Below are positions 32,677-49,787 of a stretch of 64,000 bases of DNA, in pieces; positions within the stretch are counted from its first letter, which is position 1, and every line of letters starts with the position of its first letter. Under the pieces are notes generated by a model. The model did not search any database. It was not told the origin of the DNA and saw only the letters and a program-made list of their open reading frames with translations. The DNA lies in assembly GCA_051418015.1 (NCBI GenBank), contig JBPRGF010000023.1, positions 172,127 to 236,126 on the forward strand. The letters run 5' to 3'. The stretch comes from Candidatus Nitrospinota bacterium M3_3B_026 (GTDB lineage: Bacteria > Nitrospinota_A > UBA7883 > JBPRGF01). A program made the translations under genes and the position numbers.

Positions 32677-32698
32677 TTTTTCAAGGGGAGACGAGGCG

Positions 32699-36070: not shown

Positions 36071-36536
36071 GGTCCTCATAGGCGTCGGGTCCGAGGATCG
36101 CGGCGACGACGCCGCAGGGCTCAGGATCGTCCGCGCCCTCAGGGACATGGTTCCCAGGAGCGTCGAGGTGGTGGAGGCGCCGGGCGAGGGAGCGCGTATA
36201 ATGGAGGCTTGGCAGGGTTTTCATTTCACGCGGGTGTTCGACGCCGTCTCCTCCGGCGCGCCGCCGGGGACGATCGTAAAGCTCGACCCGCGTAAGGACC
36301 CCTTTCCCGCGGCCTTTTTTCGCAGTTCCTCCCACACTTTCGGCCTGGCGGAGGCGGTGGAGCTTGCGCGGTCGCTCGGCGCTCTTCCGCCGTCTCTCAT
36401 GATCTACGGGGTGGAGGGGAAGGACTACGGGCTGGGGCGGGGGCTCTCGGCGGAGGTGTCCGCCGCCGTGGATGAGATCGTGGAGATGGTCAAAAAGGAG
36501 ATGCTCTCTTCGCCATCCATGGGAGATGATGGCTAG
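36060..36536 (+). CDS. hydrogenase maturation endopeptidase (HycI/HoxW family)
   Basis: 158 aa ([17 protein letters not shown]). Overlaps the large-subunit stop. Confidence 0.8.
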
Positions 36537-37054
36537 GACTTGGAGAACCGCTCCGACACGGAGTCGAAGCCTATGACCACCTTGTCGCGGCTTTCGAGGG
36601 TGACCGTCCCTTCGAAAGAGTGGCCGAACGTCTCGTCCCCGTCCCTGGTGTCCTTTATGGCCACTTTTATCGCATGCGAGCCGAGGGGCAGGATGAACTT
36701 CTCGTAGACATACGTGGCGCTGTCCTGCCTTATGCCCGATGGGACGATCTGCTTGTCCAGGGCGGTTTCGCCGTCGATCCACACCTTGAGCCGCAGGGGG
36801 ACGCGTTCCCGGCTGCCGCAAACCCTGTCCGCCCGCTGCATGTGCGGGCGTCTCAGCTTGGCCTCCTTTTTGAACTCTTCGAGCTCCTCCTCGTCGCACA
36901 GGCTCCTGCGCTCGGTCACTCTCTTGAACGATATGATGACCCCCCCCACGTCGTCGCTGTAATAGCTGTAGGACGGCGAGTCGGAAAGAAAATACACCAG
37001 CGGCGCGGGGGACAAAAGCAGGATCACGGCCCAGACCGTCAGTCTATCCTTCAT
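36533..37054 (-). CDS. hypothetical secreted protein
   Basis: 173 aa with an N-terminal signal-like helix. Last gene of the minus-strand oxidase operon. Its stop overlaps the protease stop (convergent). Confidence 0.4.
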   Translation of the reverse strand: MKDRLTVWAVILLLSPAPLVYFLSDSPSYSYYSDDVGGVIISFKRVTERRSLCDEEELEEFKKEAKLRRPHMQRADRVCGSRERVPLRLKVWIDGETALDKQIVPSGIRQDSATYVYEKFILPLGSHAIKVAIKDTRDGDETFGHSFEGTVTLESRDKVVIGFDSVSERFSKS

Positions 37055-38730
37055 TTCAGCGCGCCCTCCATGTCGTTGGCGGCGGTCTTTCCGCCGGATG
37101 GTTTTCTGACGATCTCCAGGAACTTCTTTATGTCCGCCACCACTTCCTCGTCCTCAAACCTCGACACCAGCATGACTTTTATCCGCTCCCCCGCGCTCTC
37201 GTCCACTCCGGTGATGTTCGCCGGGTCCGTCGCCTCCTCGATCCGCTCGTTGCCTTCCCTGTAATGGCAGTCCAGCGGCCTGCAGCCCACGACCACGACC
37301 CCCTTCGCGCCGTCCTTGAACGCCGCTCCCACAAGGTCCGGCTCCAGGACGCCGGCGCAGGGGATGACCATCACGGCCGCCGCGGGCTCGCCGGCAAGGC
37401 TTCTCTCGTCGTCCGACAGGACGTTCGAGAGGGTCATGCTCCGCTCGCACATGAAGCAGAGGATGACCGGCTTCTCCCCCTCCGCGGGCGCCATAAGGGA
37501 CTTTATGTCCTCCAGCATCGAATCCCGCGTCATCTCCCCCATGGATATCCCGGACGTGGGGCACGCCGTCACGCAGAACCCGCATCCCTCGCACCGCGCC
37601 GGGAATATTTCCACCTGTGTGTCGTATGGTCTTCCGTCCGTTCTGGGAGTTATGCTCACCGCCTCGAAAGGGCAGACCGGCTGGCAGAGGTTGCATCCTT
37701 TGCATTTTTCAAGGTCTACCAGCGCGAACTGTTTTCGGGCTTTTTTTTTTGCCGCCGCCTTTCGCTTCTCACGCTCCAGCGCCGGCGCGGGGATGAGCCA
37801 TGGCAGGGCCGTGAAAAGCGCGAGGGCCGCGGAGCCGGCGATCCACATCGCGCCGGGGGCGACCCTGAAGGCGTCCATGAAGGGGAACGGGATCAGGTAG
37901 AACCAGTCTATCTCCACTCTTCCTAAAAGCTTCGAAAGGTCCGCGGGTCCCATACTGACGGCCGGTTTCACGAGGGAGAGGCCCAGCAGGCCCGCCAGTA
38001 TGACCAACGCCACCGGCCGCGGCGGGGAGATCAGGGGCCTGGAAAGGCGCATGTAGTGGATCCAGGCCATTATCAACAGGAAACAGGGGATCATGAGATG
38101 CAGGTAGTTGGTCACGAAAAAGAGCACGCTCGTGACCGTCTCGTTGGTCAGGAACGTCCTGGAGACGGGCTCCACGGTGATGGGGAGGGCGTCCAGCAGG
38201 CGGGCGAACTCCACGGCCACCATCTTCCCCTTCTCGTCCCACACCAGCACGTAGCCGGATATCCCCTCGAACCAGACCCAGAACAGGATCACCGAGCCGG
38301 AGACCCACGCCACCCATCTAGCGCGCCTGAACCGGTCGGAGAAAAAGACCTGGGCCACGTGCAGAAGGATGGATATGGCCAGCCCGTCGGCGGCGTAGCG
38401 GTGCATGGAGCGCATTATGCCGCCGTAATATTTCTGCTCCTTGGTGATGTATTGTACGGACTCGTAGGCCCCTTCCACGCTCATATCGTAAAAGAGGAAC
38501 AGGTATGACCCGGTGATGATGAGGATCCAGAACAGGAACAGGGATATGGCCCCGAGGAAGTACATGGGGTTCAGCCTCGGCGGGAAGATCTTGTTCAGCT
38601 GCTCCTGGATGAAGACCAGCGTCGTGTTGCCGGGCCGCAATATCCAGGGGATAAGCTCATTCTGGTACGTCTTGGAGGCCCTTTTCAGGGACCTTTCGAG
38701 TTCTCTCTCCTTGTCCGTGTCTTGTCTCAT
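37051..38730 (-). CDS. fusion protein: di-haem cytochrome b6-like membrane domain + 2x[4Fe-4S] ferredoxin + MvhD-like (FlpD) domain
   Basis: Cytochrome b His pairs 14 residues apart (MHRYAADGLAISILLH and YLHLMIPCFLLIMAWIH) and a b6-like GYVLVWD motif. Two CxxCxxCxxxCP motifs (CKGCNLCQPVCP, CEGCGFCVTACP). MvhD signature GCRPLDCHYREGN. Confidence 0.7.
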   Translation of the reverse strand: MRQDTDKERELERSLKRASKTYQNELIPWILRPGNTTLVFIQEQLNKIFPPRLNPMYFLGAISLFLFWILIITGSYLFLFYDMSVEGAYESVQYITKEQKYYGGIMRSMHRYAADGLAISILLHVAQVFFSDRFRRARWVAWVSGSVILFWVWFEGISGYVLVWDEKGKMVAVEFARLLDALPITVEPVSRTFLTNETVTSVLFFVTNYLHLMIPCFLLIMAWIHYMRLSRPLISPPRPVALVILAGLLGLSLVKPAVSMGPADLSKLLGRVEIDWFYLIPFPFMDAFRVAPGAMWIAGSAALALFTALPWLIPAPALEREKRKAAAKKKARKQFALVDLEKCKGCNLCQPVCPFEAVSITPRTDGRPYDTQVEIFPARCEGCGFCVTACPTSGISMGEMTRDSMLEDIKSLMAPAEGEKPVILCFMCERSMTLSNVLSDDERSLAGEPAAAVMVIPCAGVLEPDLVGAAFKDGAKGVVVVGCRPLDCHYREGNERIEEATDPANITGVDESAGERIKVMLVSRFEDEEVVADIKKFLEIVRKPSGGKTAANDMEGALK

Positions 38731-38779
38731 GTCAAGTGTAGATTCGATAACTGCGTGGCGGATTCGGCGCTGGTCTCAC

Positions 38780-39595
38780 TTAGGAGGCTTGCGCGCCCCT
38801 CGCGCGGCCTGAGTGGCGGGAGAAAAGATGGGCTATCCTGCCCCGCAACAGGTAAACGACAGTGGCCACTATCAGGATGTACTGCAAAATGACTGCGAAG
38901 ACAAACGTGTAATCGACCTTGTAGGTCTTGGTGACGGGATCGTAGTTCGAGCAGTAGATCAACAGCTTTGACAGGGCGCTGGTCATCCTCCCCTGCGCCG
39001 TGCGGCCGGCGAGGACATCCCGGACGGCGTTCTCCACTTCCGCGGGATCGTAGTCCACTCCGTAGAAATGCCTGGCGACGGAGCCGTCGGGCGCGACGAG
39101 GGTGAGGCGGTTCAGGTGATCGAGGCTGTCCGCCTTCTTCTCGTAGGAAAAGCCGAGGTCCGACACCATCATCCCCAGCGTCTCGTCGTCGGTGGTCGTG
39201 AATATCCATCTTTCGAAATTGTCCGCGAAAGCCGCGCCGTACTCCCTGAGCCTGGCGGGGTTGTCGTTATGGTTGTCGATGCTTATCGACAGCGTCATCA
39301 GCTTCCCGGCGACGGCCGGGTCGATGGCCGCCAACATGTTTTTAAGGCTCTCGTTTATGAGCCAGCAAGGGCCGTGGCAGTCCACGTACATGAAGCTTAC
39401 GAGGACGGGCCTGCCTTTCAGGCTGTGGAACGGGAGGTAGTCCCCGTCCTGCGTAATAAGCCTGTAGTTTCGCACCTTCCGCCCCACCGCCAGCTCCGAG
39501 CGCTCCAGGACCGAAGCCCCAGGCGCGGCCGGCGCCGTGGCGGAAAGCGGCGAAACGATCAGAACAACCGCTAATACCAGCGCACGTTTCAGCAT
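38780..39595 (-). CDS. SCO1/SenC family copper chaperone (thioredoxin-like)
   Basis: 271 aa. Signal peptide, CHGPC (CxxxC) motif, and a C-terminal TM segment. Confidence 0.7.
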   Translation of the reverse strand: MLKRALVLAVVLIVSPLSATAPAAPGASVLERSELAVGRKVRNYRLITQDGDYLPFHSLKGRPVLVSFMYVDCHGPCWLINESLKNMLAAIDPAVAGKLMTLSISIDNHNDNPARLREYGAAFADNFERWIFTTTDDETLGMMVSDLGFSYEKKADSLDHLNRLTLVAPDGSVARHFYGVDYDPAEVENAVRDVLAGRTAQGRMTSALSKLLIYCSNYDPVTKTYKVDYTFVFAVILQYILIVATVVYLLRGRIAHLFSRHSGRARGAQAS

Positions 39596-39685
39596 GGGGT
39601 AAAGGCCGCTCCCCTTAAAAACCGCCGCGGCTCCGGGCCGGTGGTGTTACCCCCGCCGGAGCCGCGGCTCCCCTCTCTAAGCGCG

Positions 39686-39814
39686 TCAACCCACCTTCCA
39701 TACTCCTACAAGATACTTCCAGTTGAGGAAGTAGAAGGCCACGAACGTAATGAAAAATATGATGATGATGGCGAACGAGCCTTTCGGCCTGTGTTCGTCT
39801 CTCTCTTCAACCAT
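39686..39814 (-). CDS. small single-TM membrane peptide (42 aa), candidate oxidase accessory subunit
   Basis: Not in the ORF track. ATG is preceded by AGGAGG at -5. MVEERDEHRPKGSFAIIIIFFITFVAFYFLNWKYLVGVWKVG. Lies between SCO1 and subunit I. Confidence 0.45.
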   Translation of the reverse strand: MVEERDEHRPKGSFAIIIIFFITFVAFYFLNWKYLVGVWKVG

Positions 39815-39844
39815 GATGACACCTCCTATGCTAAAAAGGCCCTG

Positions 39845-41365
39845 TCAAGCCTCGATCTTTTTGCCGACTAGCAGCGTCCCGACGGCCACCAACACATACA
39901 TGGCGCCGCCCAGCACCGCTATGACGCCGCCGATGCCCACGATCGCCATCGAAAGGTCCACGATGGGCCCGAAGTTGACGGCGAAGGGCGAATCCGCCCC
40001 GGTCATGTCCCAGCTTCTCCTGGGCACGCCGAACACCCCGGCGAACATCATGAAGATGCACAGCAGGTACATCCCTATGCCATAGACGTAGGGCTGGGCC
40101 TTGGCTATGCCCTTGAAGGCCACCTCGCGCCTGAATATGAGAGGCAGCACGTAGTAGGTCACGCCCATGAAGGCCATCGTCGTGCCCGCCACCACTGTGG
40201 CGTGGAAATGGCCGGGGACGCGGATGGTGTTGTGGACGACTATGTTCAGCTGCTCCGTGCCGTATATGACGCCGGAGATGCCTCCCAGGAAGCCGAAGCC
40301 CACCATCGAGAACCACAGCGAGGACCATCCCGGATCGCCCCACGGGGCCTTCTTGAGCCACTCGAAAAGACCGGCGGTGTAGCCCTTCTTCCTGAGCGCC
40401 ACCTCCGTCGCCGCCGGCACGGAGAAGGCGTGGATCATCGAGGCCAGCACAGCAAGGTGCATGAAGTACCCCGTGTTCCACGACTTGTGCGCCGCCGAGA
40501 GGCCCGGGTCGACCAGCAGGTGGTGCTCCGAGGCTATCAGGATGAACAAGATGTAAAGGCCGAAAGCGATGCGGCTGACCTTCTCGTTGATCGGCGTGGA
40601 GCCGACCGTCAATGTCCCCAGAAGGTACCAGACAGCCACCATGGCGCAGACGTTTATCTGCTGCGACGAGTGGCCGAAGCCCCAGAACAGCAGCCTGTAG
40701 ACCTCCGCGTCCATCATGGGGATGAGCCCCAGGGCCCACAGCCACGTGGGGATAAAAGTGGCCGCTCCATGCGCCAGGGTCAGTATGGCGATGATCGCCG
40801 CCGCCATGGCCCCGAAGGTCACAAGCGGGACGGAGCCTTCGTAGGTCTTGTCCCTCTTGGCCACCGCCAGCGTGGCGAAAAAGACCACGCAACCCACGAT
40901 GGCGCCCACGGCGAAGAGTATCACGCCGAGGTAGTACCAATGGTCGGCCTTCAAGGGGATGTACGAGGTGAACATCACGTCCGCCTTGCCGAGCAGTATC
41001 TCCACCGCCGCTATTGCGGCTCCGCCCAGCATCAGCAGATACGCCAGCCACCCGGCCCATGGCGCGGCCAGCCTGGTGTTCAGCAACACCGCGGACGCGA
41101 AGTAGAGCACAGCTATCTCGAAGAAGATGATCCACGCCACCAGCATGGCGATCCCGTGCAGGGTCAGCAGCCGGTAGAACCACTCGTCATTGAGTATGTG
41201 CACGGCCTGCCACCTGGTGAGGACCATGAACAGCCCGATTATCCCCCCCACGAGGAGGAACACGATCGAAGTCACCGCGTTGACCTGTATCAGGGTCTGC
41301 GCGGGAAGGTGTATCTTGAAACCGGTTGTCGGACAGGTTCTGAACCGTCCTTCTTGCTCCGCCAT
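39845..41365 (-). CDS. heme-copper oxidoreductase superfamily subunit I (12+ TM), possibly a nitric oxide reductase
   Basis: All six canonical His are present: helix II (LTLHGIAM), helix VI (GFGHSSQQ), helix VII (SEHH) and helix X (GHFHATV). There is no Tyr at H+4 in helix VI. Confidence 0.85.
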   Translation of the reverse strand: MAEQEGRFRTCPTTGFKIHLPAQTLIQVNAVTSIVFLLVGGIIGLFMVLTRWQAVHILNDEWFYRLLTLHGIAMLVAWIIFFEIAVLYFASAVLLNTRLAAPWAGWLAYLLMLGGAAIAAVEILLGKADVMFTSYIPLKADHWYYLGVILFAVGAIVGCVVFFATLAVAKRDKTYEGSVPLVTFGAMAAAIIAILTLAHGAATFIPTWLWALGLIPMMDAEVYRLLFWGFGHSSQQINVCAMVAVWYLLGTLTVGSTPINEKVSRIAFGLYILFILIASEHHLLVDPGLSAAHKSWNTGYFMHLAVLASMIHAFSVPAATEVALRKKGYTAGLFEWLKKAPWGDPGWSSLWFSMVGFGFLGGISGVIYGTEQLNIVVHNTIRVPGHFHATVVAGTTMAFMGVTYYVLPLIFRREVAFKGIAKAQPYVYGIGMYLLCIFMMFAGVFGVPRRSWDMTGADSPFAVNFGPIVDLSMAIVGIGGVIAVLGGAMYVLVAVGTLLVGKKIEA

Positions 41366-41378
41366 AAGCCCCCCCTAC

Positions 41379-41906
41379 CTATTCAACGTATATCTTGCCG
41401 AACATCAGGTGATGCCCGATGCCGCAGAACTCGTTGCAGATTATGGTGTACTCCCCGGCTTTCGTCGGCGTGATGGTCAGCACCGAGTCCCACCCGGGGA
41501 CGGCCTGGAAGTTCATGTTCAAAGGATAGATCGAAAAACCGTGGTTCACGTCCACGGAGGACAGATGCAGCCTGTAGGTCTGGCCCGCCTTGAGCTTCAG
41601 GATGGGGTCCCACGACCACTGGGCGGCTCTCATGAAGGCGTCGCTGTTGGGAGGAGGCTCCACGACCGGGATTCCTTCCTCCTCGCCCACCTTGTACTTC
41701 TCTATGAACTTATCGGTCAGGTTGTAGAAATCGTCGGTGGTGAGCTTGTAGTACTCCTGCGGCGGGTTCTGCTCCCCGATTATATGCCAGGCCGGCATAA
41801 TAAGTGTTATCAATATGCACCATATCAGCGCGATGGTGATCCATATCTTCTCCTCCGCATGGAGAGGACTGCGCCACCAGTGCCGCGCGGGCGAATGAAT
41901 GCTCAT
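41379..41906 (-). CDS. heme-copper oxidase subunit II with CuA site (cupredoxin), no cytochrome c domain
   Basis: N-terminal TM helices. CuA motif VNHGF...ICNEFCGIGHHLM (H-x35-CxExCGxxHxxM). Confidence 0.8.
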   Translation of the reverse strand: MSIHSPARHWWRSPLHAEEKIWITIALIWCILITLIMPAWHIIGEQNPPQEYYKLTTDDFYNLTDKFIEKYKVGEEEGIPVVEPPPNSDAFMRAAQWSWDPILKLKAGQTYRLHLSSVDVNHGFSIYPLNMNFQAVPGWDSVLTITPTKAGEYTIICNEFCGIGHHLMFGKIYVE

Positions 41907-41928
41907 GTCTTCCCCCCTTATTTAGTTT

Positions 41929-42132
41929 TCACCCTTTGACCAAAGGAGACGTGGCGACGCTGCCCAACTCCACAAGTCCCCAGACGGTGTACAACAGCAG
42001 GAAAATCGCCGCCCCGAGGAAAAACAGCAGATACACGTCATCGAAAAACACCTGCCAGAAAGATACCGGCTCCTCTTCCCGCGCCTCTTCTTGTTCCATA
42101 TGACTTCCCCCCTTTAATCTAAGGTTCGCCAA
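41929..42132 (-). CDS. small membrane protein (first gene of oxidase operon)
   Basis: 67 aa with one TM helix. Possibly starts at the internal MEQEE. Confidence 0.35.
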   Translation of the reverse strand: MANLRLKGGSHMEQEEAREEEPVSFWQVFFDDVYLLFFLGAAIFLLLYTVWGLVELGSVATSPLVKG

Positions 42133-42263: not shown

Positions 42264-42277
42264 ATGATAAAAGTCAT
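42264..42277. promoter_or_regulatory. FNR/Dnr(Crp-Fnr family)-type palindrome
   Basis: ATGATaaaagTCAT, versus the consensus TTGAT-N4-ATCAA. Lies in the divergent intergenic region, about 130 nt upstream of the oxidase operon. Confidence 0.35.
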
Positions 42278-42529: not shown

Positions 42530-42543
42530 ATGACTTTAATCAT
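42530..42543. promoter_or_regulatory. FNR/Dnr-type palindrome upstream of nirS
   Basis: ATGACtttaATCAT, centred 77 nt upstream of the nirS ATG. This is consistent with a -41.5 class II site. Confidence 0.45.
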
Positions 42544-42613: not shown

Positions 42614-44218
42614 ATGAAAAGATATTTCTTTCTGTTCGCGCTGAGTCTTGCGTTAATCACCACGTTTTACACGCCACAAGCCCTGGCGGAGCCCGAAGCG
42701 CCACCGTTGAACCAGGATGAATGGCACATCGCCAAGAGCATCTACTTCAACAGGTGCGCCGGCTGCCACGGCACCCTGAGGAAAGGCGCCACGGGGCCCA
42801 ACCTCCTTCCGGAGAAGACCCTCGAATTCGGCACGGAGACCATCAGGAGCTTCATTATGGAGGGGACCGAGGGGGGCATGCCGGCCTTCGGCAGGGGCGG
42901 AATCCTGACGCCGGAGGAGGTCGACATCATGGCCAGGTTCGTCCAGCATGACCCCGTGGCCCCGCCGGAGATGTCGCTGGCGGACATGATGGAAAGCTGG
43001 AACCTTGTCGTGCCGCCGAACAAGAGGCCGAAAAAGCCGGCCCACAACAGGAACTGGCAGAACTTCTTCGGCGTGGTCCTGCGCGACGCTGGCCAGGTGG
43101 CCATCATCGACGGCGACACCAAGGAGAAGGTATCCACCGTCAACACAGGCTTCGCGGTGCACATCCTGCGCGCCTCGGCGTCGGGCCGGTATATCTTCTC
43201 AATCGGCCGCGACGGCAAGGCGACCATGATCGACACCTGGATGAAAAAGCCGTCCATCGTGGCCGAGGTCAAGACCTGCTCCGAGGCCCGCTCCATCGAC
43301 ACCAGCAAATACGAAGGCTACGAGGACAAGTACGCCGTGGTGGGCTGCTACTGGCCGCCGCACTTCGTCGTCCTGAACGGCGCCACGCTGGAGCCGATGA
43401 AAATCGTCAGCACCAGAAGCTACACCTACGACTCGTATGAGTACCATCCCGAGCCCCGCGTGGCGGCGATCGTCTCCTCGCACTACAGCCCGGAGTGGGT
43501 CCTGAACGTCAAGGAGACGGGCTACGTCTGGCTGGTCGATTACTCCGATATCGAGAACATGAAGATCACCCAGATCGAGTCTGAGCGCTTCCTTCACGAC
43601 GGGGGCTGGGACGCCAAGCACCGCTACTTCATGGCGGCGGCGAACATGCGCGACACCATGGTTGTCATAGACACCAAGACCAGGAAGAAGGTGGCGCAGT
43701 TCAAGGTCGGCACCAAGCCGCACCCGGGCCGCGGCGGAAACTGGGTCGACCCGAAATACGGCCCCGTCTCGGGCACGGTGCACCTCGGCGAGGGACTGCT
43801 CTCGGTGTGGGGGTCCGACCCTGAGGGTCACCCGGAACACGCCTGGAAGGTCGTGAGAAGCATCGAGCTTCCCGGCGGCGCCGGCAGCCTGTTCATGAAG
43901 ACCCACCCCAAGAGCAAACACATGTGGATGGACTTCACCCTGAACCCGGACCCGAAGAACCATCGCAGCGTATGCGTGATGGACATCAACAAGCCTAACA
44001 CCAAGGACCTGAACTGTTTCCAGGTGACCGACCACGGACGCGTCGTGCACATGGAGTACAACAAGAAAGGGGACGAGGTGTGGCTGAGCGTCTGGGACAA
44101 GGAGGGCGAGCTGGTCATCTACGACGACAGGACCCTGAAGGTCAAGAAGAGGATCAAGGGTCTTCGCACTCCCACGGGCAAGTTCAACGTGTACAACACG
44201 CAGCACGACATCTACTGA
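42614..44218 (+). CDS. nirS: cytochrome cd1 nitrite reductase
   Basis: 534 aa. Signal peptide, haem c site IYFNRCAGCHGTLRKGATG, a d1 beta-propeller, and a C-terminus FNVYNTQHDIY near-identical to Pseudomonas NirS. Confidence 0.92.
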   Translation: MKRYFFLFALSLALITTFYTPQALAEPEAPPLNQDEWHIAKSIYFNRCAGCHGTLRKGATGPNLLPEKTLEFGTETIRSFIMEGTEGGMPAFGRGGILTPEEVDIMARFVQHDPVAPPEMSLADMMESWNLVVPPNKRPKKPAHNRNWQNFFGVVLRDAGQVAIIDGDTKEKVSTVNTGFAVHILRASASGRYIFSIGRDGKATMIDTWMKKPSIVAEVKTCSEARSIDTSKYEGYEDKYAVVGCYWPPHFVVLNGATLEPMKIVSTRSYTYDSYEYHPEPRVAAIVSSHYSPEWVLNVKETGYVWLVDYSDIENMKITQIESERFLHDGGWDAKHRYFMAAANMRDTMVVIDTKTRKKVAQFKVGTKPHPGRGGNWVDPKYGPVSGTVHLGEGLLSVWGSDPEGHPEHAWKVVRSIELPGGAGSLFMKTHPKSKHMWMDFTLNPDPKNHRSVCVMDINKPNTKDLNCFQVTDHGRVVHMEYNKKGDEVWLSVWDKEGELVIYDDRTLKVKKRIKGLRTPTGKFNVYNTQHDIY

Positions 44219-44301
44219 TGGCAAGCGCGCGGTAACACCGTTGAGGGCGCCCCGGCGCGGCGGCAAGCCCCCGGGGCGCCCCGAATTAAAAGAGGCGCAT
44301 T

Positions 44302-46017
44302 ATGACCTCGCCATCCATGACGCGGATCGCGGCTCTCATCCTTGCGCCGGTGTTTATCTCCGGCCCCGGATCGGCCTTCGCCGAAACTTCCGCGAAGAAC
44401 CTCTATGGGGAGCATTGCGCGAGCTGCCATCACCCGAAAAGGCTGGGGCTCACGGCCCCTCCCTTGATACCGGGTCTTTTTTCAAGAAGCGCCAAGGGCC
44501 GCCTGCCCCAAATAATCCGCGACGGGCTTCCGGCCACGCGGATGCCGGCTTTCGGCGGCGAGCTTTCTGATGAACAGATAAAACTTCTGGCGGAACTCAT
44601 ACAAGAACCGGCGAAGGAGTTGGACTGGACTTTTGAGGACATACGGTCTAGCAAGATTGACATTGACGAGCCTGGAAAAGTTTTAAGAGCCGACATCGAG
44701 AATATAACGCTGGTCATGGAGCGCGGGACGCAGAGCCTCGTCGTTCTGGACGGCGCGGATTTCAGCGAGCTCGGCAGGTTCCACGTGGGCGCCGTCCACG
44801 GCGGGCCGAAGTTTTCGTATTCCCTGGATCGTGTGTACGCCCTTGCCAGGGACGGGATACTGACAAGCTATAATCTGAGAGCCCTTTCCGCCGAGACCAG
44901 GCTCAAGGCGGGGATAAACTCCCGCTCCGTCGCCGTATCAAGCGGCGACAAAACGGTGGCCGTGGCCAATTACCTTCCGTCCAACGTCGTCCTTTTCGAC
45001 AAAGACCTGGAGCCCGTCGGCGAGATACCACTGCCCGGAAAGGCGGGGGGGTTCTACTCGCTGCCGTCCCTGAAAAGCTTCGCCCTGTCGTTCAGGGAGA
45101 TTCCGGAACTCTGGATAATCGGCGAGAGCCCGCCTTTCGAGATCGAAAAACGAAAGCTGCCCGAGGCTTTCCAGGATTTTTCGGTCAGTCCCGTCAAGCC
45201 TTACATAATCGGGACGAAACGGGGCGGCGATCATATGTACATCTACGACTACATGGAGGACAGGATACTCAAAAAGATCCCCACCAGCGGCCTGCCGCAC
45301 CTGGCCTCGGCCGCGTTCTACATACACAAGGGCGAGCTTTTCGCCGGGGTCAACCACATAAAAAAGCCAGCGGCCACGATCATATCCCTCGACCGGCTCG
45401 ACAAGGTGGCCGAGATACCCCTTCCCGGCGCGGGCTTTTTCGTCCGGACGCATCATGCCACGCCGTACCTGTGGATAGATACCGAGACGGAGCGGATCGC
45501 CCTCGTGAACAAGGACGACTTCTCCGATATCCGCTACCTGACGCCCCACGAGGGGCGCAAGGCGATGCACGTGGAATTCACCAAGGAGGGCGCCCGCGCC
45601 CTGGTCACCATCCCGGGCAGGGGCGGCGAGGTGGTCATATACGACGCGAAGACCCTGGAAAAGATCAACGCCATCCCCTTCGAACGGCCCGTCGGCAAGT
45701 ACAACGCCACGAACAAGACGTACCCGGGCAGATCGCTCGCGGCGCGGAAGGCGGATGGGGCCAGCGCGGGCAAACAGGTCTTCGACAAATACTGCATGGG
45801 GTGCCACCACCAGGTCTACGAGGCGTTCGGGCCATCCTTCACCCGGATAGCCAGGGAGAGGGGCGCGGCAAGGATAAAGTTTCACATCCTGTCGCCCGAG
45901 GCCAGCGCAAAGACCCTGGGGTACAAGAGAAACTCCATGCCCAGGATAAAACTTTCGCCGGAGCAGCTGGAGGCGATAGTCAGATACATAAAAAGCTTCG
46001 GCCAGACGGGGGGATAA
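44302..46017 (+). CDS. nirN: cd1-family beta-propeller protein with N- and C-terminal c-type cytochrome domains (NirN-like fused to a NirC-like cytochrome c)
   Basis: 571 aa. Signal peptide. CASCHH at the N-terminus, a d1-type propeller, and a second CMGCHH motif in a C-terminal domain of about 90 aa. Confidence 0.65.
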   Translation: MTSPSMTRIAALILAPVFISGPGSAFAETSAKNLYGEHCASCHHPKRLGLTAPPLIPGLFSRSAKGRLPQIIRDGLPATRMPAFGGELSDEQIKLLAELIQEPAKELDWTFEDIRSSKIDIDEPGKVLRADIENITLVMERGTQSLVVLDGADFSELGRFHVGAVHGGPKFSYSLDRVYALARDGILTSYNLRALSAETRLKAGINSRSVAVSSGDKTVAVANYLPSNVVLFDKDLEPVGEIPLPGKAGGFYSLPSLKSFALSFREIPELWIIGESPPFEIEKRKLPEAFQDFSVSPVKPYIIGTKRGGDHMYIYDYMEDRILKKIPTSGLPHLASAAFYIHKGELFAGVNHIKKPAATIISLDRLDKVAEIPLPGAGFFVRTHHATPYLWIDTETERIALVNKDDFSDIRYLTPHEGRKAMHVEFTKEGARALVTIPGRGGEVVIYDAKTLEKINAIPFERPVGKYNATNKTYPGRSLAARKADGASAGKQVFDKYCMGCHHQVYEAFGPSFTRIARERGAARIKFHILSPEASAKTLGYKRNSMPRIKLSPEQLEAIVRYIKSFGQTGG

Positions 46018-46018
46018 G

Positions 46019-47188
46019 ATGTTCAGACTAAGCCATTATTACAACATAGCTGAAGGGCGCGCGGGCCGCGGCGGAAAGTCCCATGGCGCCAGATGCGGCG
46101 GGAAGCCGATCGTGATATGGAACCTCACGAGGACATGCAACCTCTCGTGCGTCCATTGCTACGCCTCGTCGAAGGCGCGCGGCTACAGCAGGGAGCTTTC
46201 CACGGAGCAGGCCGTCTCGGTCATGGACGGCCTTTACGCCGCCGGGGTGAGAACGGTCATCCTCTCCGGCGGCGAGCCGATGATCCGCGGGGATATCCTT
46301 AACCTTGCCGCAAGCGCTAAAGAAAAAGGCTTCATGACCTCCATCTCCACCAACGGCACACTTATAGGAGAGAAGGAGGCGGACAGGATAGCCGCCGCGG
46401 GGCTGGACTACGTCGGCGTGAGCCTGGACGGCATCGGCGAGACCCACGACCGCGTCCGGGGCGTCGAAGGCTCTTTCGAGCAGGCCGTGGCGGGGCTTTT
46501 CAGGCTGGCGGAGCGGGGGGTAAAATGCGGCGTGCGTTTCACGCTGACGAGGATGAACATGAACGACCTGCCGGCGATCTTCGAGTTCGCCGAGAAGAAC
46601 GGGATAGGGAAAATATATTTATCACACCTCGTCTACTCCGGCAGGGGTGGCGTCAATCGGGGGGAGGACGTCACCCCGGCTGAGACGAGGGAAGCGATGG
46701 ATTACGTTTTCAGCAAGGCGCGGGAGTACACGCGGCGCGGGCGCGGGCCGCAGATCGTCACCGGGAACAACGACGCCGACGCCGCGTACCTGCTCCTGCG
46801 TCTCATGGAGGGGAGCCCGGAGGGGGCCGAGCGGCTCCTGCCGGTGATGGAGAGGTTCGGCGGGGCCAACGCCGGGGTGGGGGTCGCGAACATAGACCCC
46901 ACCGGTGAGGTCCACCCCGATCCTCTCATGTCCTCCGTGAACCTGGGGAACGTCACCGAAAAATCTTTCGGTGAGATATGGCATGACTCCGAAAACCCCG
47001 TCCTGAAAAGGCTCCGGGCGAGGCCCCGCGTCTTCAACGGCCGGTGCGGACGGTGCGCCTGGCTGAAGGTGTGCGGCGGCTCCTGCCGCGTCCGGGCTCT
47101 GCGGATGACGGGGGACATGTGGGGTCACGACCCCGCCTGCTACCTTACCGACGAGGAAACCCAGGTTGAGCTTGCGCAGGCTGTATAG
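46019..47188 (+). CDS. nirJ: haem d1 biosynthesis radical SAM protein
   Basis: 389 aa. CNLSCVHCY radical SAM cluster plus a C-terminal SPASM-like Cys cluster (CGRCAWLKVCGGSC). Lies in the nir context. Confidence 0.8.
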   Translation: MFRLSHYYNIAEGRAGRGGKSHGARCGGKPIVIWNLTRTCNLSCVHCYASSKARGYSRELSTEQAVSVMDGLYAAGVRTVILSGGEPMIRGDILNLAASAKEKGFMTSISTNGTLIGEKEADRIAAAGLDYVGVSLDGIGETHDRVRGVEGSFEQAVAGLFRLAERGVKCGVRFTLTRMNMNDLPAIFEFAEKNGIGKIYLSHLVYSGRGGVNRGEDVTPAETREAMDYVFSKAREYTRRGRGPQIVTGNNDADAAYLLLRLMEGSPEGAERLLPVMERFGGANAGVGVANIDPTGEVHPDPLMSSVNLGNVTEKSFGEIWHDSENPVLKRLRARPRVFNGRCGRCAWLKVCGGSCRVRALRMTGDMWGHDPACYLTDEETQVELAQAV

Positions 47189-48338
47189 CGCTGTTATCCC
47201 GGCCGTTCTCGCGCTCGCGGCAGCAGCGGCGACAGCGGGCGAGTGGGGCACGGGGGCGCTCATGGTGGTCATCGAGCGCGAAAGCGGCTCCGTCCTGGTC
47301 ATAGACTCCGCCCAGGACCACAAAGTCCTGGGCAGGATAGAGGGTCTCGGCGTACTGCATCACGCATCGGTCTCCTTCTCCCGCGGCGGGCGCTACGGCT
47401 ACGTCGTCAGCCGCGACGGCTTTTTGAGCAAGATCGACCTTCTGAGGCTCGAAGTCACCGCCAGGGTGAAGGTGGGAGAGAGCGCCATCGGGCTGGCTGT
47501 CACGCAGGACGGGAAACATATCGCCATCAGCAATTACAAGCCGGGGAACATCGTCATCGTCTCCGATGAGACTTTTGAGATCGTAAAGACCATAGACGCC
47601 GACGAGTCGAAGACCGTCGGCCTCGTGGACGCCCCGGAGAACAGGCTGGTGGTCTCTTTAATGGACGCGAACGAGATATGGGTAATAGACGCGAACGATC
47701 CGGATTTCCCCGTCATCAAAAAGTTCAAGGACGTCGGCGAGAAGCCATACGACGGCCTGCTGACTCCCGACGGGCGGTATTACATCGCCGGGCTTTTCCA
47801 TTCCCCGTGGGCGGCGATGGTGGACCTCTGGAGCATGGACGGGGTTGAAAAAATCCCGCTGCCCGTCCCGCCCGAAAAAAAGGACAAACCGCCGGTCCTG
47901 AAGATCCCCCACCTGGAGGGGTGGATCATGGCCGGGCAGGGCCTTTTCGCGCCGGTGATAGGCGGCTCCGGGCTGGCGCTGATCGACATGGAGACATGGA
48001 AGGTAAAGAAGGTGATAGACCTGCTGGCATACCCCGTCTTCGCCATGGCCCAGCCGGACATGAGGAGGATATGGACCAACTACGTCCTGGGCGAACACCA
48101 CGACACCGTGCAGGTCGTGGACGTGAAAACCCTCGAGGTGGTCAAAACCCTCAAACCCGGCGACAAAATTTTCCACATGCAGTTCACGCCCAAGGGCGGC
48201 GCCGTCTACCTCTCCTCCAACGGCGACGACAAGGTCCTGATCTACGACACGAAGACTTTTGGGCTTGTCAGGGAGATATCAGCCAGAAAACCATCCGGGA
48301 TATTCTCAAGCGCCCGCTCCGCCACCTTCGGGCTGTGA
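47166..48338 (+). CDS. nirF: haem d1 biosynthesis protein NirF (d1-type propeller without haem c)
   Basis: 390 aa. Signal peptide. cd1-propeller-like repeats. No CxxCH. Confidence 0.7.
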   Translation: MSLRRLYSAVIPAVLALAAAAATAGEWGTGALMVVIERESGSVLVIDSAQDHKVLGRIEGLGVLHHASVSFSRGGRYGYVVSRDGFLSKIDLLRLEVTARVKVGESAIGLAVTQDGKHIAISNYKPGNIVIVSDETFEIVKTIDADESKTVGLVDAPENRLVVSLMDANEIWVIDANDPDFPVIKKFKDVGEKPYDGLLTPDGRYYIAGLFHSPWAAMVDLWSMDGVEKIPLPVPPEKKDKPPVLKIPHLEGWIMAGQGLFAPVIGGSGLALIDMETWKVKKVIDLLAYPVFAMAQPDMRRIWTNYVLGEHHDTVQVVDVKTLEVVKTLKPGDKIFHMQFTPKGGAVYLSSNGDDKVLIYDTKTFGLVREISARKPSGIFSSARSATFGL

Positions 48339-49592: not shown

Positions 49593-49646
49593 ACGGAGGG
49601 TAAAAAGAAGACCTTTGCCTAACCTGGATGCTCCGGTGTTTTGAAG

Positions 49647-49739: not shown

Positions 49740-49787
49740 GGCGGCAACGGGCGGCAAGGCCGGTTGCGAAGGTATCGGAAAAGGCCC

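What the first reader, a model, noticed from the sequence alone, without database searches (positions are those of the whole stretch)
36533..42132. Heme-copper oxidase operon with CuA subunit II, SCO1 and a cyt b–ferredoxin–MvhD fusion, divergent from nirS: candidate non-canonical nitric oxide reductase module
A seven-gene minus-strand operon sits head-to-head with the cd1 nitrite reductase cluster (nirS starts 480 bp away on the other strand). Its genes are a small membrane protein, CuA-containing subunit II, HCO subunit I, a 42-aa peptide, a SCO1/SenC copper chaperone, a cytochrome b6–2[4Fe-4S]–MvhD fusion and a secreted protein. No cytochrome c subunit is encoded. cd1 NirS produces NO, and nir and nor genes are typically clustered and co-regulated. 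No norBC is present in the window. The gene composition (CuA subunit II + Sco + HCO I with a modified active site + a unique membrane/Fe-S electron-input subunit) does not match caa3, ba3, cbb3, cNOR or qNOR layouts. It may be one of the poorly characterised CuA-type NOR families (bNOR/eNOR/sNOR/gNOR-like), or an undescribed respiratory complex that links a quinol/Fe-S donor to NO or O2 reduction in an organism that otherwise looks anaerobic.
Basis: partly seen in the sequence, partly recalled or inferred. Interest (0 to 1): 0.85.

Follow-up and report, generated by a model that had tools for sequence, protein, structure and literature searches.

The report
eNOR-type nitric oxide reductase operon
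This is a gene cluster for a known but little-studied copper-containing nitric oxide reductase (the eNOR family), placed next to the nitrite reductase that makes its substrate, and it carries a widely conserved membrane iron-sulfur partner protein whose role is still unknown.

Summary
Seven same-strand ORFs at 36533-42132 encode a small membrane protein, a CuA subunit II, a heme-copper subunit I, a 42-aa helix, SCO1/SenC, a cytochrome b–2[4Fe-4S]–MvhD fusion and a membrane-anchored beta-sandwich protein. They lie 481 bp head-to-head with nirS.

Subunit I is closest to B-type (ba3) oxidases. It keeps all six His metal ligands. The cross-linked Tyr is replaced by Gln in all 84 family members aligned, and Gln at this site is the published eNOR signature. 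Ser309 of the K-channel is kept, which argues against sNOR. gNOR, bNOR, nNOR, cNOR and qNOR signatures are not met. It is therefore an eNOR-family NO reductase, a family shown biochemically in Rhodothermus marinus (Murali 2024).

Two exact copies of a CRP/FNR-like palindrome lie between nirS and the operon and recur in relatives, which suggests co-regulation.

The cytochrome b–Fe-S–MvhD gene and its beta-sandwich partner lie beside this oxidase in 71 of 80 related loci across several phyla. Some homologs fuse the two, and one adds a cytochrome c domain. I infer a dedicated electron-input module; this is untested. A 2026 preprint noted similar genes in Ferrigenium.

Verdict: new member of a known kind, moderate interest.

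The parts
41929..42132 (-). g1: 67-aa single-helix membrane protein upstream of subunit II. By position it corresponds to ba3 subunit IIa.
   Evidence: ORF; no Pfam or NCBIfam hit. Homologs found at the same position in all 12 same-strand loci and in about 22 of the other 68. Small ORFs also sit upstream of subunit II in Thermus, T. roseum and Defluviimonas. The start codon (TTG 42132 or ATG 42099) is not settled.
41379..41906 (-). g2: eNOR subunit II, one TM helix plus a CuA cupredoxin domain
   Evidence: Pfam COX2 E 5.3e-07. Best PDB matches are T. thermophilus ba3 subunit II/CuA domains, E about 2e-14. CuA ligands align: DVNHGF and CNEFCGIGHHLM against DVLHGF and CSEICGTNHAFM.
39845..41365 (-). 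g3: eNOR catalytic subunit I (506 aa, 12 TM helices)
   Evidence: COX1 E 4.6e-63. Best solved relatives are B-type ba3 oxidases, E about 1e-39. His ligands H70, H232, H281, H282, H386 and H388 are kept. ba3 Y237 is Q236 in 84 of 84 family sequences. Q235 and N238 are family-specific. K-channel positions are Y247, S309, H312 and S315. All 240 nearest database homologs carry H-x-x-Q-Q.
39686..39814 (-). g4: 42-aa helix, the detached 13th transmembrane helix of subunit I
   Evidence: Aligns to residues 533-573 of the 576-aa Defluviimonas subunit I, E 8e-09. Subunit I is mostly about 570-590 aa in the other phyla, against 501-506 aa plus a separate g4 in Nitrospinota. Weak CoxIIa Pfam hit, E 0.0035, below threshold.
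39615..39668 (-). GC-rich hairpin followed by UUUUU between g4 and sco: a terminator- or attenuator-like element that splits structural from accessory genes
   Evidence: Minimum free energy -47.6 kcal/mol, z -4.2, and 0 of 200 shuffles fold as well. In relatives this same gap holds the palindromic box.
38780..39595 (-). g5: SCO1/SenC copper chaperone (CHGPC motif), presumably for CuA assembly
   Evidence: Pfam SCO1-SenC E 7e-13. Conserved downstream of subunit I in Nitrospinota, Defluviimonas and Thermoanaerobaculia loci.
37051..38730 (-). g6: 6-TM bc-type cytochrome b (two b hemes, Qo-like motifs) fused to a cytoplasmic 2x[4Fe-4S] ferredoxin domain and an MvhD-like [2Fe-2S] domain
   Evidence: Pfam Cytochrome_B, Fer4 x2 and FlpD. 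NCBIfam matches the HdrA2 C-terminal region, E 5e-32. Residues 45-237 align to cytochrome b6, E 6e-24, including VWDE against PWDQ. H110, H124, H211 and H225 are invariant. The eight Fe-S Cys and C428, C458, C483 and C488 are invariant or nearly so (at least 95%). D275 in the IDWF motif is invariant. AF2 pLDDT 88.5, pTM 0.88; Foldseek matches bc1 cytochrome b over about 300 columns. 100% identical to a protein of 'Candidatus Nitrospinota bacterium M3_3B_026'.
36533..37054 (-). g7: membrane-anchored periplasmic beta-sandwich protein, partner of g6 (possibly the 'eNOR scaffold protein' of the Ferrigenium preprint)
42264..42277 (.). Palindromic box ATGATAAAAGTCAT (core TGA-N6-TCA, CRP/FNR-like) about 130 bp upstream of g1
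   Evidence: One of only two exact matches to ATGAY-N4-RTCAT in 64 kb. The same box lies upstream of g1 in L001, L003, L004, L005, L007, L009, L011, L017 and L040.
42530..42543 (.). Second copy of the palindromic box, ATGACTTTAATCAT, 71 bp upstream of the nirS start codon
   Evidence: Conserved upstream of nirS in L003 (ATGACTTAAATCAT) and L004 (ATGACTAAAGTCAT).
42614..48338 (+). Divergent nirS, nirN-like, nirJ, nirF cluster (cd1 nitrite reductase and heme d1 maturation), the source of NO
   Evidence: Cytochrom_D1 E 6.6e-131 and 1.7e-53. Radical SAM and a d1-type beta-propeller. The same divergent arrangement occurs in L002, L003, L004 and L074.

Best explanation
The locus encodes an eNOR-family heme-copper nitric oxide reductase. 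This family descends from B-type (ba3-like) oxidases.

Proposed working:
- NirS, made from the divergent cluster, reduces nitrite to NO in the periplasm.
- Electrons enter eNOR at the periplasmic CuA centre of subunit II. They pass through the low-spin heme to the high-spin heme/non-heme metal site of subunit I, where 2 NO + 2 e- + 2 H+ give N2O + H2O.
- The site lacks the cross-linked Tyr (it is Gln), so it cannot supply the fourth electron that O2 reduction needs.
- A retained K-channel-like row of polar residues (Y247, S309, H312, S315) could bring protons from the cytoplasm. That would make the reaction electrogenic.
- The 67-aa protein and the 42-aa detached 13th helix are small structural subunits. 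Sco loads CuA.
- Both divergent promoter regions carry the same CRP/FNR-like palindrome, so nirS and eNOR are probably switched on together.
- The cytochrome b–2[4Fe-4S]–MvhD protein (g6) and its periplasmic beta-sandwich partner (g7) most likely form a dedicated transmembrane electron-input module. It would connect the quinol pool and/or a cytoplasmic Fe-S donor to CuA, taking the place of bc1 plus soluble cytochrome c.

Shown here: gene content, family signatures, conserved synteny, gene fusions and the shared palindrome.

Inferred: NO-reductase activity (by homology to the R. marinus enzyme), proton uptake, co-regulation, and the whole role of g6/g7.
For: Family assignment:
- Best solved relatives are ba3 oxidases.
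- Gln replaces Tyr237 in 84 of 84 aligned family members and in all 240 nearest database homologs.
- Gln at this site is the criterion used to define eNOR. sNOR and bNOR have Asn, gNOR has Asp, cNOR and qNOR have Glu (PMC8756737 Table A4).
- Ser309 is kept. It is kept in eNOR and lost in sNOR (PMC11214002).
- CuA ligands are intact.
- The family includes a Thermus plasmid gene. A Thermus sequence with the key active-site residues was in the published eNOR alignment together with Rhodothermus profundi.

Function:
- R. marinus eNOR reduces NO and does not reduce O2 (PMC11214002).
- nirS is divergent here and in L002, L003, L004 and L074.
- In Thermus the homolog lies about 4.5 kb from nirS and a multicopper-oxidase gene, with an Rrf2 regulator gene immediately downstream.
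- L098 has Crp/Fnr and Rrf2 regulators.

Regulation:
- The only two exact copies of ATGAY-N4-RTCAT in 64 kb lie in the 481-bp intergenic region, and the box recurs in relatives.

g6/g7:
- g6 is present beside the oxidase in 71 of 80 loci. Only 2 loci with adequate flanks lack it.
- The loci come from Nitrospinota, Gemmatimonadota, Acidobacteriota, and Alpha-, Gamma- and Deltaproteobacteria. The same module is also in Defluviimonas and Thermoanaerobaculia.
- g6 and g7 are fused in at least 10 homologs. One fusion adds a C-terminal cytochrome c, the classic CuA donor, and sits directly after COX2-COX1.
- All cofactor ligands are conserved at 95% or more, most of them invariant.
- Qo-type motifs are retained.
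- The Ferrigenium eNOR subunits and both cytochrome b-[Fe-S] proteins were detected in the proteome under denitrifying conditions.
Against: - I could not obtain the sequence of the characterised R. marinus enzyme. Clustering with it is indirect.
- No heme O or heme A synthase gene lies in the 64-kb window, although eNOR is reported to use heme As. The heme type here is unknown.
- Thermus, T. roseum and two Nitrospinia loci have the oxidase without g6/g7. The module is therefore not needed for catalysis.
- g6 relatives also occur alone (L093), next to diheme cytochromes c (L094), in a bc-like cluster (L097), and beside a Tyr-containing true B-type oxidase (L096). The module is not specific to NO reduction.
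- g7 has no evident cofactor site.
- No Rieske protein or cytochrome c gene is in the operon, so no route from the b hemes to CuA has been demonstrated.
- A terminator-like hairpin separates g1-g4 from sco-g6-g7.
Confidence: 0.8

Rival explanations
1. g6/g7 plus eNOR form a Rieske-less, cytochrome c-less, quinol-oxidising supercomplex with Qo-type electron bifurcation. One electron from quinol goes uphill in potential to CuA and NO. The other goes through the two b hemes and the Fe-S/MvhD domains to a low-potential cytoplasmic acceptor such as ferredoxin or NAD(P)+. NO reduction would thus drive reverse electron flow.
For: - g6 keeps a bc-type cytochrome b core with (P)WD(Q)- and P(E/D)W(Y/F)-like Qo motifs and an invariant Asp275.
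- Its cytoplasmic half matches the ferredoxin-plus-MvhD end of the bifurcating HdrA2.
- The Ferrigenium preprint proposes quinol:NAD+ coupling for its FAD/NADH-binding variant.
- Subunit II has the same topology as a Rieske protein: an N-terminal anchor plus a periplasmic redox domain (inference).
Against: - Nothing shows that CuA can dock at the Qo-like site.
- No acceptor protein is encoded in the operon.
- The adjacent hydrogenase is not conserved in relatives.
- The module also accompanies an O2 reductase and a bc-like cluster.
- The idea rests on motifs and analogy only.
Confidence: 0.12
2. g6/g7 are maturation or scaffold factors for the oxidase (heme or metal insertion, or an oxygen-independent step of heme modification) and not electron donors.
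For: - In the same-strand loci they follow the assembly genes sco and, where present, heme O synthase.
- The Ferrigenium preprint calls a conserved operon gene an 'eNOR scaffold protein of unknown function'.
- g7 has no cofactor motif.
- eNOR needs heme A, whose known synthase needs O2 (PMC11214002). Only one of the 80 fetched loci (L054) has a weak match to the heme A synthase half of the T. roseum fusion.
Against: - Five redox centres with conserved ligands, and a cytochrome c fusion, are far more typical of an electron-transfer chain.
- Ferrigenium encodes heme A synthases yet keeps cytochrome b-[Fe-S] genes.
- Thermus and T. roseum make do without the module.
- Relatives sit in a bc-like cluster with no oxidase.
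Confidence: 0.12
3. The enzyme is mainly a high-affinity O2 reductase or O2 scavenger and not an NO reductase. This has been argued for the related sNOR of Nitrosomonas.
For: - It derives from B-type oxidases, which have high O2 affinity.
- sNOR transcription rises under O2 limitation, and its NO-reductase role is disputed (bioRxiv 10.1101/765727).
- R. marinus expressed eNOR only under microoxic conditions.
Against: - The redox-active Tyr is absent in every family member. I cannot exclude a migrated Tyr without a model of subunit I: Y271 is invariant in helix VII but lies 10 residues before the His pair, against 6 in cbb3 as I recall it.
- Purified R. marinus eNOR showed no O2 reduction with several donors.
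- nirS adjacency and the shared operator point to NO.
Confidence: 0.06

Closest known systems
eNOR of Rhodothermus marinus DSM 4252 (Murali et al. 2024, PMC11214002; family defined by Hemp & Gennis 2008)
   Same: A descendant of B-type heme-copper oxidases with a CuA subunit II. Gln replaces the cross-linked Tyr. All three active-site His are kept. K-channel-like residues, including Ser309, are kept. It occurs in a genome that has nirS.
   Different: I could not compare the sequences directly. No heme A or heme O synthase gene is nearby here. Subunit I is split here (506 aa plus a separate 42-aa helix). The host appears to be an uncultured Nitrospinota bacterium. Whether R. marinus has the cytochrome b–Fe-S–MvhD partner is unknown to me.
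eNOR operon of Ferrigenium straubiae KS (bioRxiv 10.64898/2026.01.22.701106)
   Same: Contains II, I, sco1 and a protein of unknown function, plus neighbouring cytochrome b-[Fe-S] fusion genes. The eNOR subunits and the cytochrome b-[Fe-S] proteins were detected in the proteome under denitrifying conditions.
   Different: Ferrigenium has a heme o synthase gene in the operon. One of its cytochrome b fusions carries FAD- and NADH-binding domains. Here the cytoplasmic end is an MvhD-like [2Fe-2S] domain. The preprint calls these genes 'rather unusual'; my survey finds the MvhD version in 71 of 80 loci.
Thermus thermophilus cytochrome ba3 oxidase (PDB 1EHK/1XME), B-family O2 reductase
   Same: Closest solved structure (E about 1e-38). 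Same helix count once g4 is added. One-helix CuA subunit II. A small extra one-helix subunit. Tyr248 and Ser309 of the K-channel are kept.
   Different: Here Tyr237 is Gln, Val236 is Gln, Trp239 is Asn, Thr312 is His and Tyr244 is Val. The predicted substrate is NO, not O2.
sNOR (norSY-senC) of ammonia oxidisers
   Same: A CuA-type B-related oxidase with a SenC/Sco gene in the cluster. Its role is debated.
   Different: sNOR has Asn at the Tyr site and lacks Ser309. This protein has Gln and keeps Ser309.
Cytochrome b of bc1/b6f complexes
   Same: The N-terminal 320 residues of g6 have four invariant heme-ligand His, PWDQ-like and PEWY-like Qo motifs, and a fold match over about 300 columns.
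   Different: Only 6 helices. No Rieske or cytochrome c1/f partner is encoded in the operon. No Cys for heme cn. Fused to cytoplasmic Fe-S domains.
HdrA2 C-terminal ferredoxin + MvhD module / MvhD of Mvh-Hdr complexes
   Same: Residues 333-543 of g6 match this region (E 5e-32). The eight [4Fe-4S] Cys and four MvhD Cys are conserved.
   Different: There is no HdrA flavin domain and no HdrBC. It is tethered to a membrane cytochrome b. The neighbouring hydrogenase includes a FAD/NAD-binding subunit and is not conserved in relatives.

Membership tests
eNOR | Gln at the position of the cross-linked active-site Tyr (helix VI) | tested here: met
   ba3 Y237 aligns with Q236. This holds in 84 of 84 aligned family members and in 240 of 240 nearest homologs, which carry H-x-x-Q-Q. 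Criterion from PMC8756737.
eNOR | All three active-site His and both heme axial-ligand positions retained | tested here: met
   H232, H281 and H282, and H70, H386 and H388, are conserved at 98% or more.
eNOR | CuA-binding cupredoxin subunit II | tested here: met
   The H...CxExCGxxHxxM ligand set aligns with the T. thermophilus CuA domain.
eNOR | K-channel-like polar residues, including Ser309 (ba3 numbering) | tested here: met
   Y247 100%, S309 99%, H312 100%, and S or T at position 315. Ser309 is kept in eNOR and bNOR and lost in sNOR (PMC11214002).
eNOR | Clusters with the characterised R. marinus (and M. magnetotacticum) enzyme in an HCO phylogeny | not testable with these tools
   The reference sequences could not be retrieved. 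Indirect link only: the family contains a Thermus plasmid gene (50% identity), and a Thermus sequence with the key residues was in the published eNOR alignment with Rhodothermus profundi.
eNOR | Heme As in both heme sites; a CtaA homolog in many eNOR operons | tested here: inconclusive
   No heme O or heme A synthase homolog in the 64-kb window. Heme O synthase is present in some related loci. Heme content cannot be read from sequence.
eNOR | Reduces NO to N2O and does not reduce O2 | not testable with these tools
   Needs enzyme assays. The only support is context: nirS adjacency and the shared operator.
sNOR | Asn at the Tyr position; Ser309 missing | tested here: not met
   Gln at the Tyr position, and Ser309 present.
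gNOR | One active-site His replaced by Asp; subunit II lacks CuA ligands | tested here: not met
   All three His are present and the CuA ligands are present.
bNOR (qCuANOR) | Asn at the Tyr position; restricted to Bacillales | tested here: not met
   Gln at the Tyr position. The host is Nitrospinota.
nNOR | cNOR-like active-site residues (Glu at the Tyr position, per Table A4); low-spin heme ligated by His and Met | tested here: not met
   Gln at the site. Both low-spin heme ligands are His, H70 and H388.
cNOR / qNOR | Glu at the Tyr position; NorC cytochrome c subunit or a fused quinol-binding N-terminal domain; related to the C family | tested here: not met
   Gln at the site. The solved relatives found are B- and A-family oxidases; no NorB chain reached E 0.001. 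No cytochrome c in the operon.
B-family O2 reductase (ba3 type) | Cross-linked His-Tyr cofactor (Tyr237) | tested here: not met
   Tyr is replaced by Gln, whereas ten genuine B-type reference sequences all have Tyr.
bc-type cytochrome b (for g6, N-terminal part) | Four bis-His heme ligands on helices B and D; Qo-site motifs | tested here: met
   H110, H124, H211 and H225 are invariant. WD(E) aligns with PWDQ. The IDWF motif has an invariant Asp275. The fold matches bc1 cytochrome b.
bc1/b6f complex (for g6/g7 as a complex) | Rieske Fe-S subunit and cytochrome c1/f partner | tested here: not met
   Neither is encoded in the operon, and no Rieske domain appeared in my Pfam scans of the other large window ORFs.
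MvhD/FlpD (for g6, C-terminal part) | FlpD domain with conserved Cys for a [2Fe-2S] cluster | tested here: met
   Pfam FlpD E 2.4e-16. C428 and C458 are invariant, C483 is 99% and C488 is 95% conserved.

The most novel reading that the evidence does not exclude
The conserved cytochrome b–2[4Fe-4S]–MvhD protein and its periplasmic partner dock onto eNOR to form a Rieske-less, cytochrome c-less quinol:NO oxidoreductase. In it the CuA domain plays the part of the Rieske head at a Qo-type site. The second electron is exported through the b hemes and Fe-S clusters to a low-potential cytoplasmic acceptor. This would be electron bifurcation powered by NO reduction, giving denitrifiers reduced ferredoxin or NAD(P)H as well as proton motive force.
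Probability: 0.1. Interest if true: 0.85.

Novelty: new member of a known kind. Interest (0 to 1): 0.45.

Why it matters
- **Annotation.** eNOR genes are routinely annotated as 'cbb3-type cytochrome c oxidase subunit I', as in the database names returned. Organisms that carry them are therefore scored as lacking an NO reductase. Recognising this locus makes this Nitrospinota bacterium a nitrite-to-N2O denitrifier, which bears on N2O budgets.
- **The open question.** The less ordinary result is comparative. A five-centre membrane redox protein and its partner travel with this oxidase across at least five phyla, and are sometimes fused to each other and to a cytochrome c. How eNOR receives electrons, and whether NO reduction conserves energy, are both open.
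- **Testability.** The same module occurs in Rhodobacterales genomes with species names (Defluviimonas; Tabrizicola, Litoreibacter and Roseovarius by subunit I homology). That makes the question directly testable by genetics and cryo-EM.

Tried and rejected
- **Exact look-up of subunit I in public assemblies:** not on record. The organism was identified through g6 instead.
- **Reaching the R. marinus, Accumulibacter or Magnetospirillum reference eNORs:** a search from the Defluviimonas homolog returned only Alphaproteobacteria at 80% identity or more. Supplementary files of the two key papers are not held. Direct phylogenetic placement was therefore not possible.
- **Canonical FNR box TTGAT-N4-ATCAA:** no match in the nirS/eNOR intergenic region at up to 2 mismatches. 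The different palindrome ATGAY-N4-RTCAT was then found by comparing orthologous intergenic regions.
- **Sigma-70 promoter scan of the operon region:** nothing found.
- **Hypothesis that the neighbouring [NiFe] hydrogenase feeds the MvhD domain:** rejected as a general mechanism, because the adjacency is not conserved in relatives.
- **Hypothesis that g6 substitutes for the O2-dependent heme A synthase:** weakened. Ferrigenium has heme A synthases yet keeps such genes, and the chemistry is implausible for low-potential b hemes.
- **Glu before the His-His pair (SEHH) as a possible FeB ligand:** rejected. It is Ala in most family members.
- **Plasmid-borne Haloarcula, Natrialba, Geobacillus, Deinococcus, Methylobacterium, Variovorax and Caballeronia homologs as possible eNOR/sNOR references:** all have Tyr, so they are ordinary B-type oxidases.
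- **Structure search for g7:** only generic beta-sandwich folds, with no functional lead.
- **NCBIfam:** no specific model for any of the seven proteins.

Full report
**Observation**

Pfam assigns the following:
- COX2/cupredoxin to the 175-aa protein.
- COX1 (E 4.6e-63) to the 506-aa protein.
- SCO1/SenC (E 7e-13) to the 271-aa protein.
- Cytochrome_B (E 2.8e-24), two 4Fe-4S domains and FlpD/MvhD (E 2.4e-16) to the 559-aa protein.

The 67-aa and 173-aa proteins have no family. The 42-aa peptide gives only a sub-threshold CoxIIa hit.

Gaps between the genes are 13-90 bp, and the last two genes overlap by 4 bp. nirS starts 481 bp away on the other strand. It is followed by a nirN-like gene with cytochrome c domains at both ends, nirJ and nirF. 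Pfam scans of the other large ORFs I called in the 64-kb window found no second COX1/NorB-type protein.

The 559-aa protein is 100% identical to a protein of 'Candidatus Nitrospinota bacterium M3_3B_026' on a 312-kb contig. The closest subunit I relatives are Nitrospinota MAGs.

**What subunit I is**

Its best solved relatives are B-type ba3 oxidases from Thermus, plus PDB entry 7DEG, at E about 1e-39. A-type oxidases are far weaker.

I aligned 84 family members with ten genuine B-type references. The family set was the window, 80 loci from GTDB species representatives, and plasmid-borne homologs from Defluviimonas, Thermomicrobium roseum and Thermus thermophilus. The results:
- All six His metal ligands are kept (window H70, H232, H281, H282, H386, H388).
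- The cross-linked Tyr237 of ba3 is Gln in 84 of 84 sequences.
- The neighbouring Val236 is Gln and Trp239 is Asn, both in 100%.
- All 240 nearest database homologs of the window and Defluviimonas proteins carry H-x-x-Q-Q.
- The ten references (Haloarcula, Natrialba, Geobacillus, Deinococcus, Brevibacillus, Methylobacterium, Variovorax, Caballeronia and ba3 itself) all have Tyr.

The literature gives the residue at this site as the family discriminator (PMC8756737 Table A4 after Hemp & Gennis 2008):

| Family | Residue at the Tyr site |
|---|---|
| O2 reductases | Tyr |
| cNOR / qNOR | Glu |
| sNOR and CuANOR (bNOR) | Asn |
| eNOR | Gln |
| gNOR | Asp |

That paper defined its eNOR ingroup by this Gln.

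Murali et al. 2024 add that eNOR and bNOR keep the K-channel Ser309, whereas sNOR has lost it. Here Ser309 is 99% conserved. Tyr248 is 100% conserved, Thr312 is an invariant His, and position 315 is Ser or Thr.

Subunit II has the full CuA ligand set. That excludes gNOR, which also replaces an active-site His.

The published eNOR alignment included a Thermus sequence and Rhodothermus profundi, both said to retain the key active-site residues. The Thermus plasmid homolog of my family is 50% identical to the window protein.

I could not retrieve the R. marinus sequence, so clustering with the characterised enzyme is indirect. On the features I could test, the protein is an eNOR. It fails the tests for every other family.

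**Function**

R. marinus eNOR reduces NO (kcat about 0.7 s-1 at 25 °C) and does not reduce O2 (PMC11214002). NO-reductase activity here is inferred by homology and from context:
- nirS is divergent here and in four related loci (L002, L003, L004, L074).
- In Thermus the homolog lies about 4.5 kb from nirS and a multicopper-oxidase gene. An Rrf2 regulator gene and a DUF542 gene follow it immediately.
- Another locus has Crp/Fnr and Rrf2 regulators beside it.

A canonical FNR box is absent from the intergenic region. Comparing orthologous intergenic regions revealed a different palindrome, ATGAY-N4-RTCAT, with a TGA-N6-TCA core.
- Its only two exact copies in 64 kb are at 42264-42277, about 130 bp upstream of the first operon gene, and at 42530-42543, 71 bp upstream of nirS.
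- With one mismatch allowed there are 11 hits against 2.5 expected, and none of 100 shuffles reached 11.
- The box recurs upstream of the operon in nine other Nitrospinota-type loci, and in the gap before sco in four.

This is good sequence evidence for a shared regulator. The regulator itself was not identified.

**Small subunits and operon structure**

The 42-aa peptide aligns to residues 533-573 of the 576-aa Defluviimonas subunit I (E 8e-09). Subunit I is mostly about 570-590 aa in Gemmatimonadota and the other phyla. It is 501-506 aa with a separate small gene in all Nitrospinota loci. The peptide is therefore the detached 13th helix, which ba3 also has, and the split is specific to this lineage.

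The 67-aa protein sits where ba3 subunit IIa is encoded.

Between the 42-aa gene and sco lies a GC hairpin followed by UUUUU (-47.6 kcal/mol, z -4.2). The structural genes (g1-g4) and the accessory genes (sco, g6, g7) may therefore be expressed at different levels. 'Seven-gene operon' should be read with that caveat.

No heme O or heme A synthase gene is in the window. Some related loci have heme O synthase between subunit I and sco.

**The cytochrome b–Fe-S–MvhD protein (g6) and its partner (g7)**

g6 has the following features:
- Residues 45-237 align to cytochrome b6 at E 6e-24.
- The four heme-ligand His (H110, H124, H211, H225) are invariant. The eight Cys of two [4Fe-4S] clusters and the four Cys of the MvhD-like domain are invariant or at least 95% conserved, in 69-98 homologs.
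- The Qo-site framework is recognisable. VWDE aligns with PWDQ, and an IDWF motif with invariant Asp275 sits in the loop before the sixth helix.
- There is no Cys for heme cn.
- The AF2 model is confident (pLDDT 88.5, pTM 0.88). Its membrane part matches bc1 cytochrome b over about 300 columns.
- The cytoplasmic half matches the C-terminal ferredoxin-plus-MvhD region of HdrA2 (E 5e-32).

From the topology of cytochrome b6 and the positively charged linker that follows the sixth helix, I infer that the Fe-S domains are cytoplasmic.

g7 overlaps g6 by 4 bp. It models as a TM helix plus an 8-strand beta-sandwich (pLDDT 84). Only generic structural neighbours were found, and it has no cofactor motif.

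Two pieces of evidence tie g6 and g7 together:
- In at least ten longer g6 homologs the C-terminal extension is homologous to g7, TM helix included (best E 2.5e-24).
- In P0224 a weaker g7-like stretch (E 0.008) is followed by a cytochrome c domain with a CxxCH motif.

So g6 and g7 form one unit, and the g7 domain is periplasmic.

**Conservation of the module**

Among the 80 GTDB loci, g6 lies next to the oxidase in 71:
- 12 on the same strand downstream: Nitrospinota-type loci and one gammaproteobacterium.
- 59 divergent upstream: Gemmatimonadota, Acidobacteriota and a deltaproteobacterium.
- 7 contigs are too short to tell.
- Only 2 loci with adequate flanks lack it (L012, L014). Those two carry heme O synthase instead, and L012 an HmuY-like gene.

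A Defluviimonas plasmid has small-II-I-cyoE-SCO-g6-g7-hemerythrin. A Thermoanaerobaculia contig has small-II-I-SCO-g6-g7.

Thermus and T. roseum have the oxidase without g6/g7.

More distant g6 relatives occur in other settings:
- Alone (L093).
- Beside two diheme cytochromes c (L094).
- Split, inside a ccm/cytochrome c/cytochrome b cluster (L097).
- As the g6-g7-cytochrome c triple fusion directly after a COX2-COX1 pair whose COX1 keeps Tyr (HPLVY), which is a true B-type oxidase (L096).

The neighbouring [NiFe] hydrogenase in the window is not conserved in relatives.

**Interpretation of g6/g7**

The module has five conserved redox centres spanning the membrane and a periplasmic domain. It is occasionally fused to cytochrome c, the classic CuA donor. 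It is associated with CuA-type oxidases of both the Gln and the Tyr kind. It is dispensable in some lineages.

This pattern fits a dedicated electron-input module best. It fits a catalytic subunit or a maturation factor less well.

Whether electrons come from quinol at the Qo-like site, from a cytoplasmic Fe-S or NAD(P)H-linked donor, or are bifurcated between CuA and a cytoplasmic acceptor cannot be decided from sequence. I give the generic electron-input reading about 0.5, a bifurcating variant about 0.1, and a maturation or scaffold role about 0.1.

**Prior art and novelty**

eNOR was proposed in 2008 and validated in 2024.

A 2026 preprint on Ferrigenium straubiae describes an eNOR operon of II, I, heme o synthase, sco1 and a 'scaffold protein of unknown function' as 'a very common observation'. 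It calls two adjacent cytochrome b-[Fe-S] fusion genes 'rather unusual'. It speculates on a quinol:NAD+ oxidoreductase supercomplex, and it reports the proteins in a denitrifying proteome.

Two full-text searches found no paper describing the MvhD-type fusion, its fusion with the beta-sandwich protein, or its breadth across phyla.

The locus is therefore a new member of a known kind. The comparative picture of its accessory module is a modest addition, not a new class.

**Verdict**

My confidence that this is an eNOR-family NO reductase is about 0.8. Interest is moderate (0.45). Its main value lies in correcting annotation and in the testable question of how eNOR is fed with electrons.

Noticed in passing
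window 42264-42277 and 42530-42543; L001, L003, L004, L005, L007, L009, L011, L017, L040 upstream of the operon; L002, L003, L017, L074 before sco: A 14-bp palindrome ATGAY-N4-RTCAT (CRP/FNR-like TGA-N6-TCA core) occurs exactly twice in 64 kb. Both copies are in the nirS/eNOR intergenic region, and the box is conserved at the equivalent places in related Nitrospinota loci. The regulator that binds it was not identified.
   Followed up: partly
window 39615-39668 (minus strand): A strong GC hairpin followed by UUUUU (-47.6 kcal/mol, z -4.2) lies between the 42-aa gene and sco. It could be a terminator or attenuator separating the structural genes from the accessory genes.
   Followed up: partly
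window 39686-39814 versus L083 8968-10698: The 42-aa ORF is the 13th transmembrane helix of subunit I, encoded as a separate gene in Nitrospinota and fused to subunit I in most of the other lineages sampled.
   Followed up: yes
L096 3144-7774: A triple fusion (cytochrome b–Fe-S–MvhD, a weakly g7-like stretch, then cytochrome c) lies directly after a COX2-COX1 pair whose subunit I keeps the cross-linked Tyr (HPLVY). The accessory module therefore also accompanies a genuine B-type O2 reductase.
   Followed up: partly
L097 4788-9670: A split version (cytochrome b–2[4Fe-4S] with a separate FlpD/MvhD gene) sits in a cluster with ccm genes, a diheme cytochrome c and a full-length cytochrome b. This looks like an unusual bc-type complex with no heme-copper oxidase nearby.
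   Followed up: no
L098 966-9322: A locus with Crp/Fnr and Rrf2 regulators, an extra 477-aa COX1-family protein lacking the usual motifs, then II, a Gln-type subunit I, SCO and a fused g6-g7 protein. The 477-aa protein was not examined.
   Followed up: no
window 31531-36536 (plus strand): A [NiFe]-hydrogenase cluster with six genes: an Fe-S subunit, a cNMP-binding protein, a FAD/NAD-binding subunit, the small and large subunits, and a HycI-type protease. It converges on the eNOR cluster, and its last gene overlaps the end of g7 by 4 bp. The adjacency is not conserved in relatives.
   Followed up: partly
window 44302-46017: The second cytochrome d1-type protein after nirS has cytochrome c domains at both its N- and C-termini, which is unusual for NirN.
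   Followed up: no
window 6344-7882: A fused uroporphyrinogen-III methyltransferase/HemD gene, which could supply precorrin-2 for heme d1 synthesis.
   Followed up: no
window 48489-56007: A signalling cluster next to the nir genes: a response regulator with an HD-type domain, a stand-alone receiver, a CHASE2-adenylate/guanylate cyclase and a FecR-domain protein. Elsewhere in the window, a cNMP-binding HDOD protein lies at 11015-12379.
   Followed up: no
window 4005-5117, 8473-10482, 13973-14716, 26448-27476: Long ORFs with inverted codon-position GC (first position about 0.8, third about 0.65). The two I scanned (4005-5117 and 8473-10482) have no Pfam hit. They are probably not the true reading frames of those stretches, so the real genes there remain uncalled.
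   Followed up: no
L081 10826-12628 and 2222-3586: On the Thermomicrobium roseum megaplasmid the eNOR-type pair is followed by a 600-aa protein annotated as heme o synthase. Its C-terminal half matches heme O synthases; I read the N-terminal half as a heme A synthase fusion but did not test this. A 454-aa 'assembly protein' nearby has a C-terminus homologous to subunit II.
   Followed up: partly
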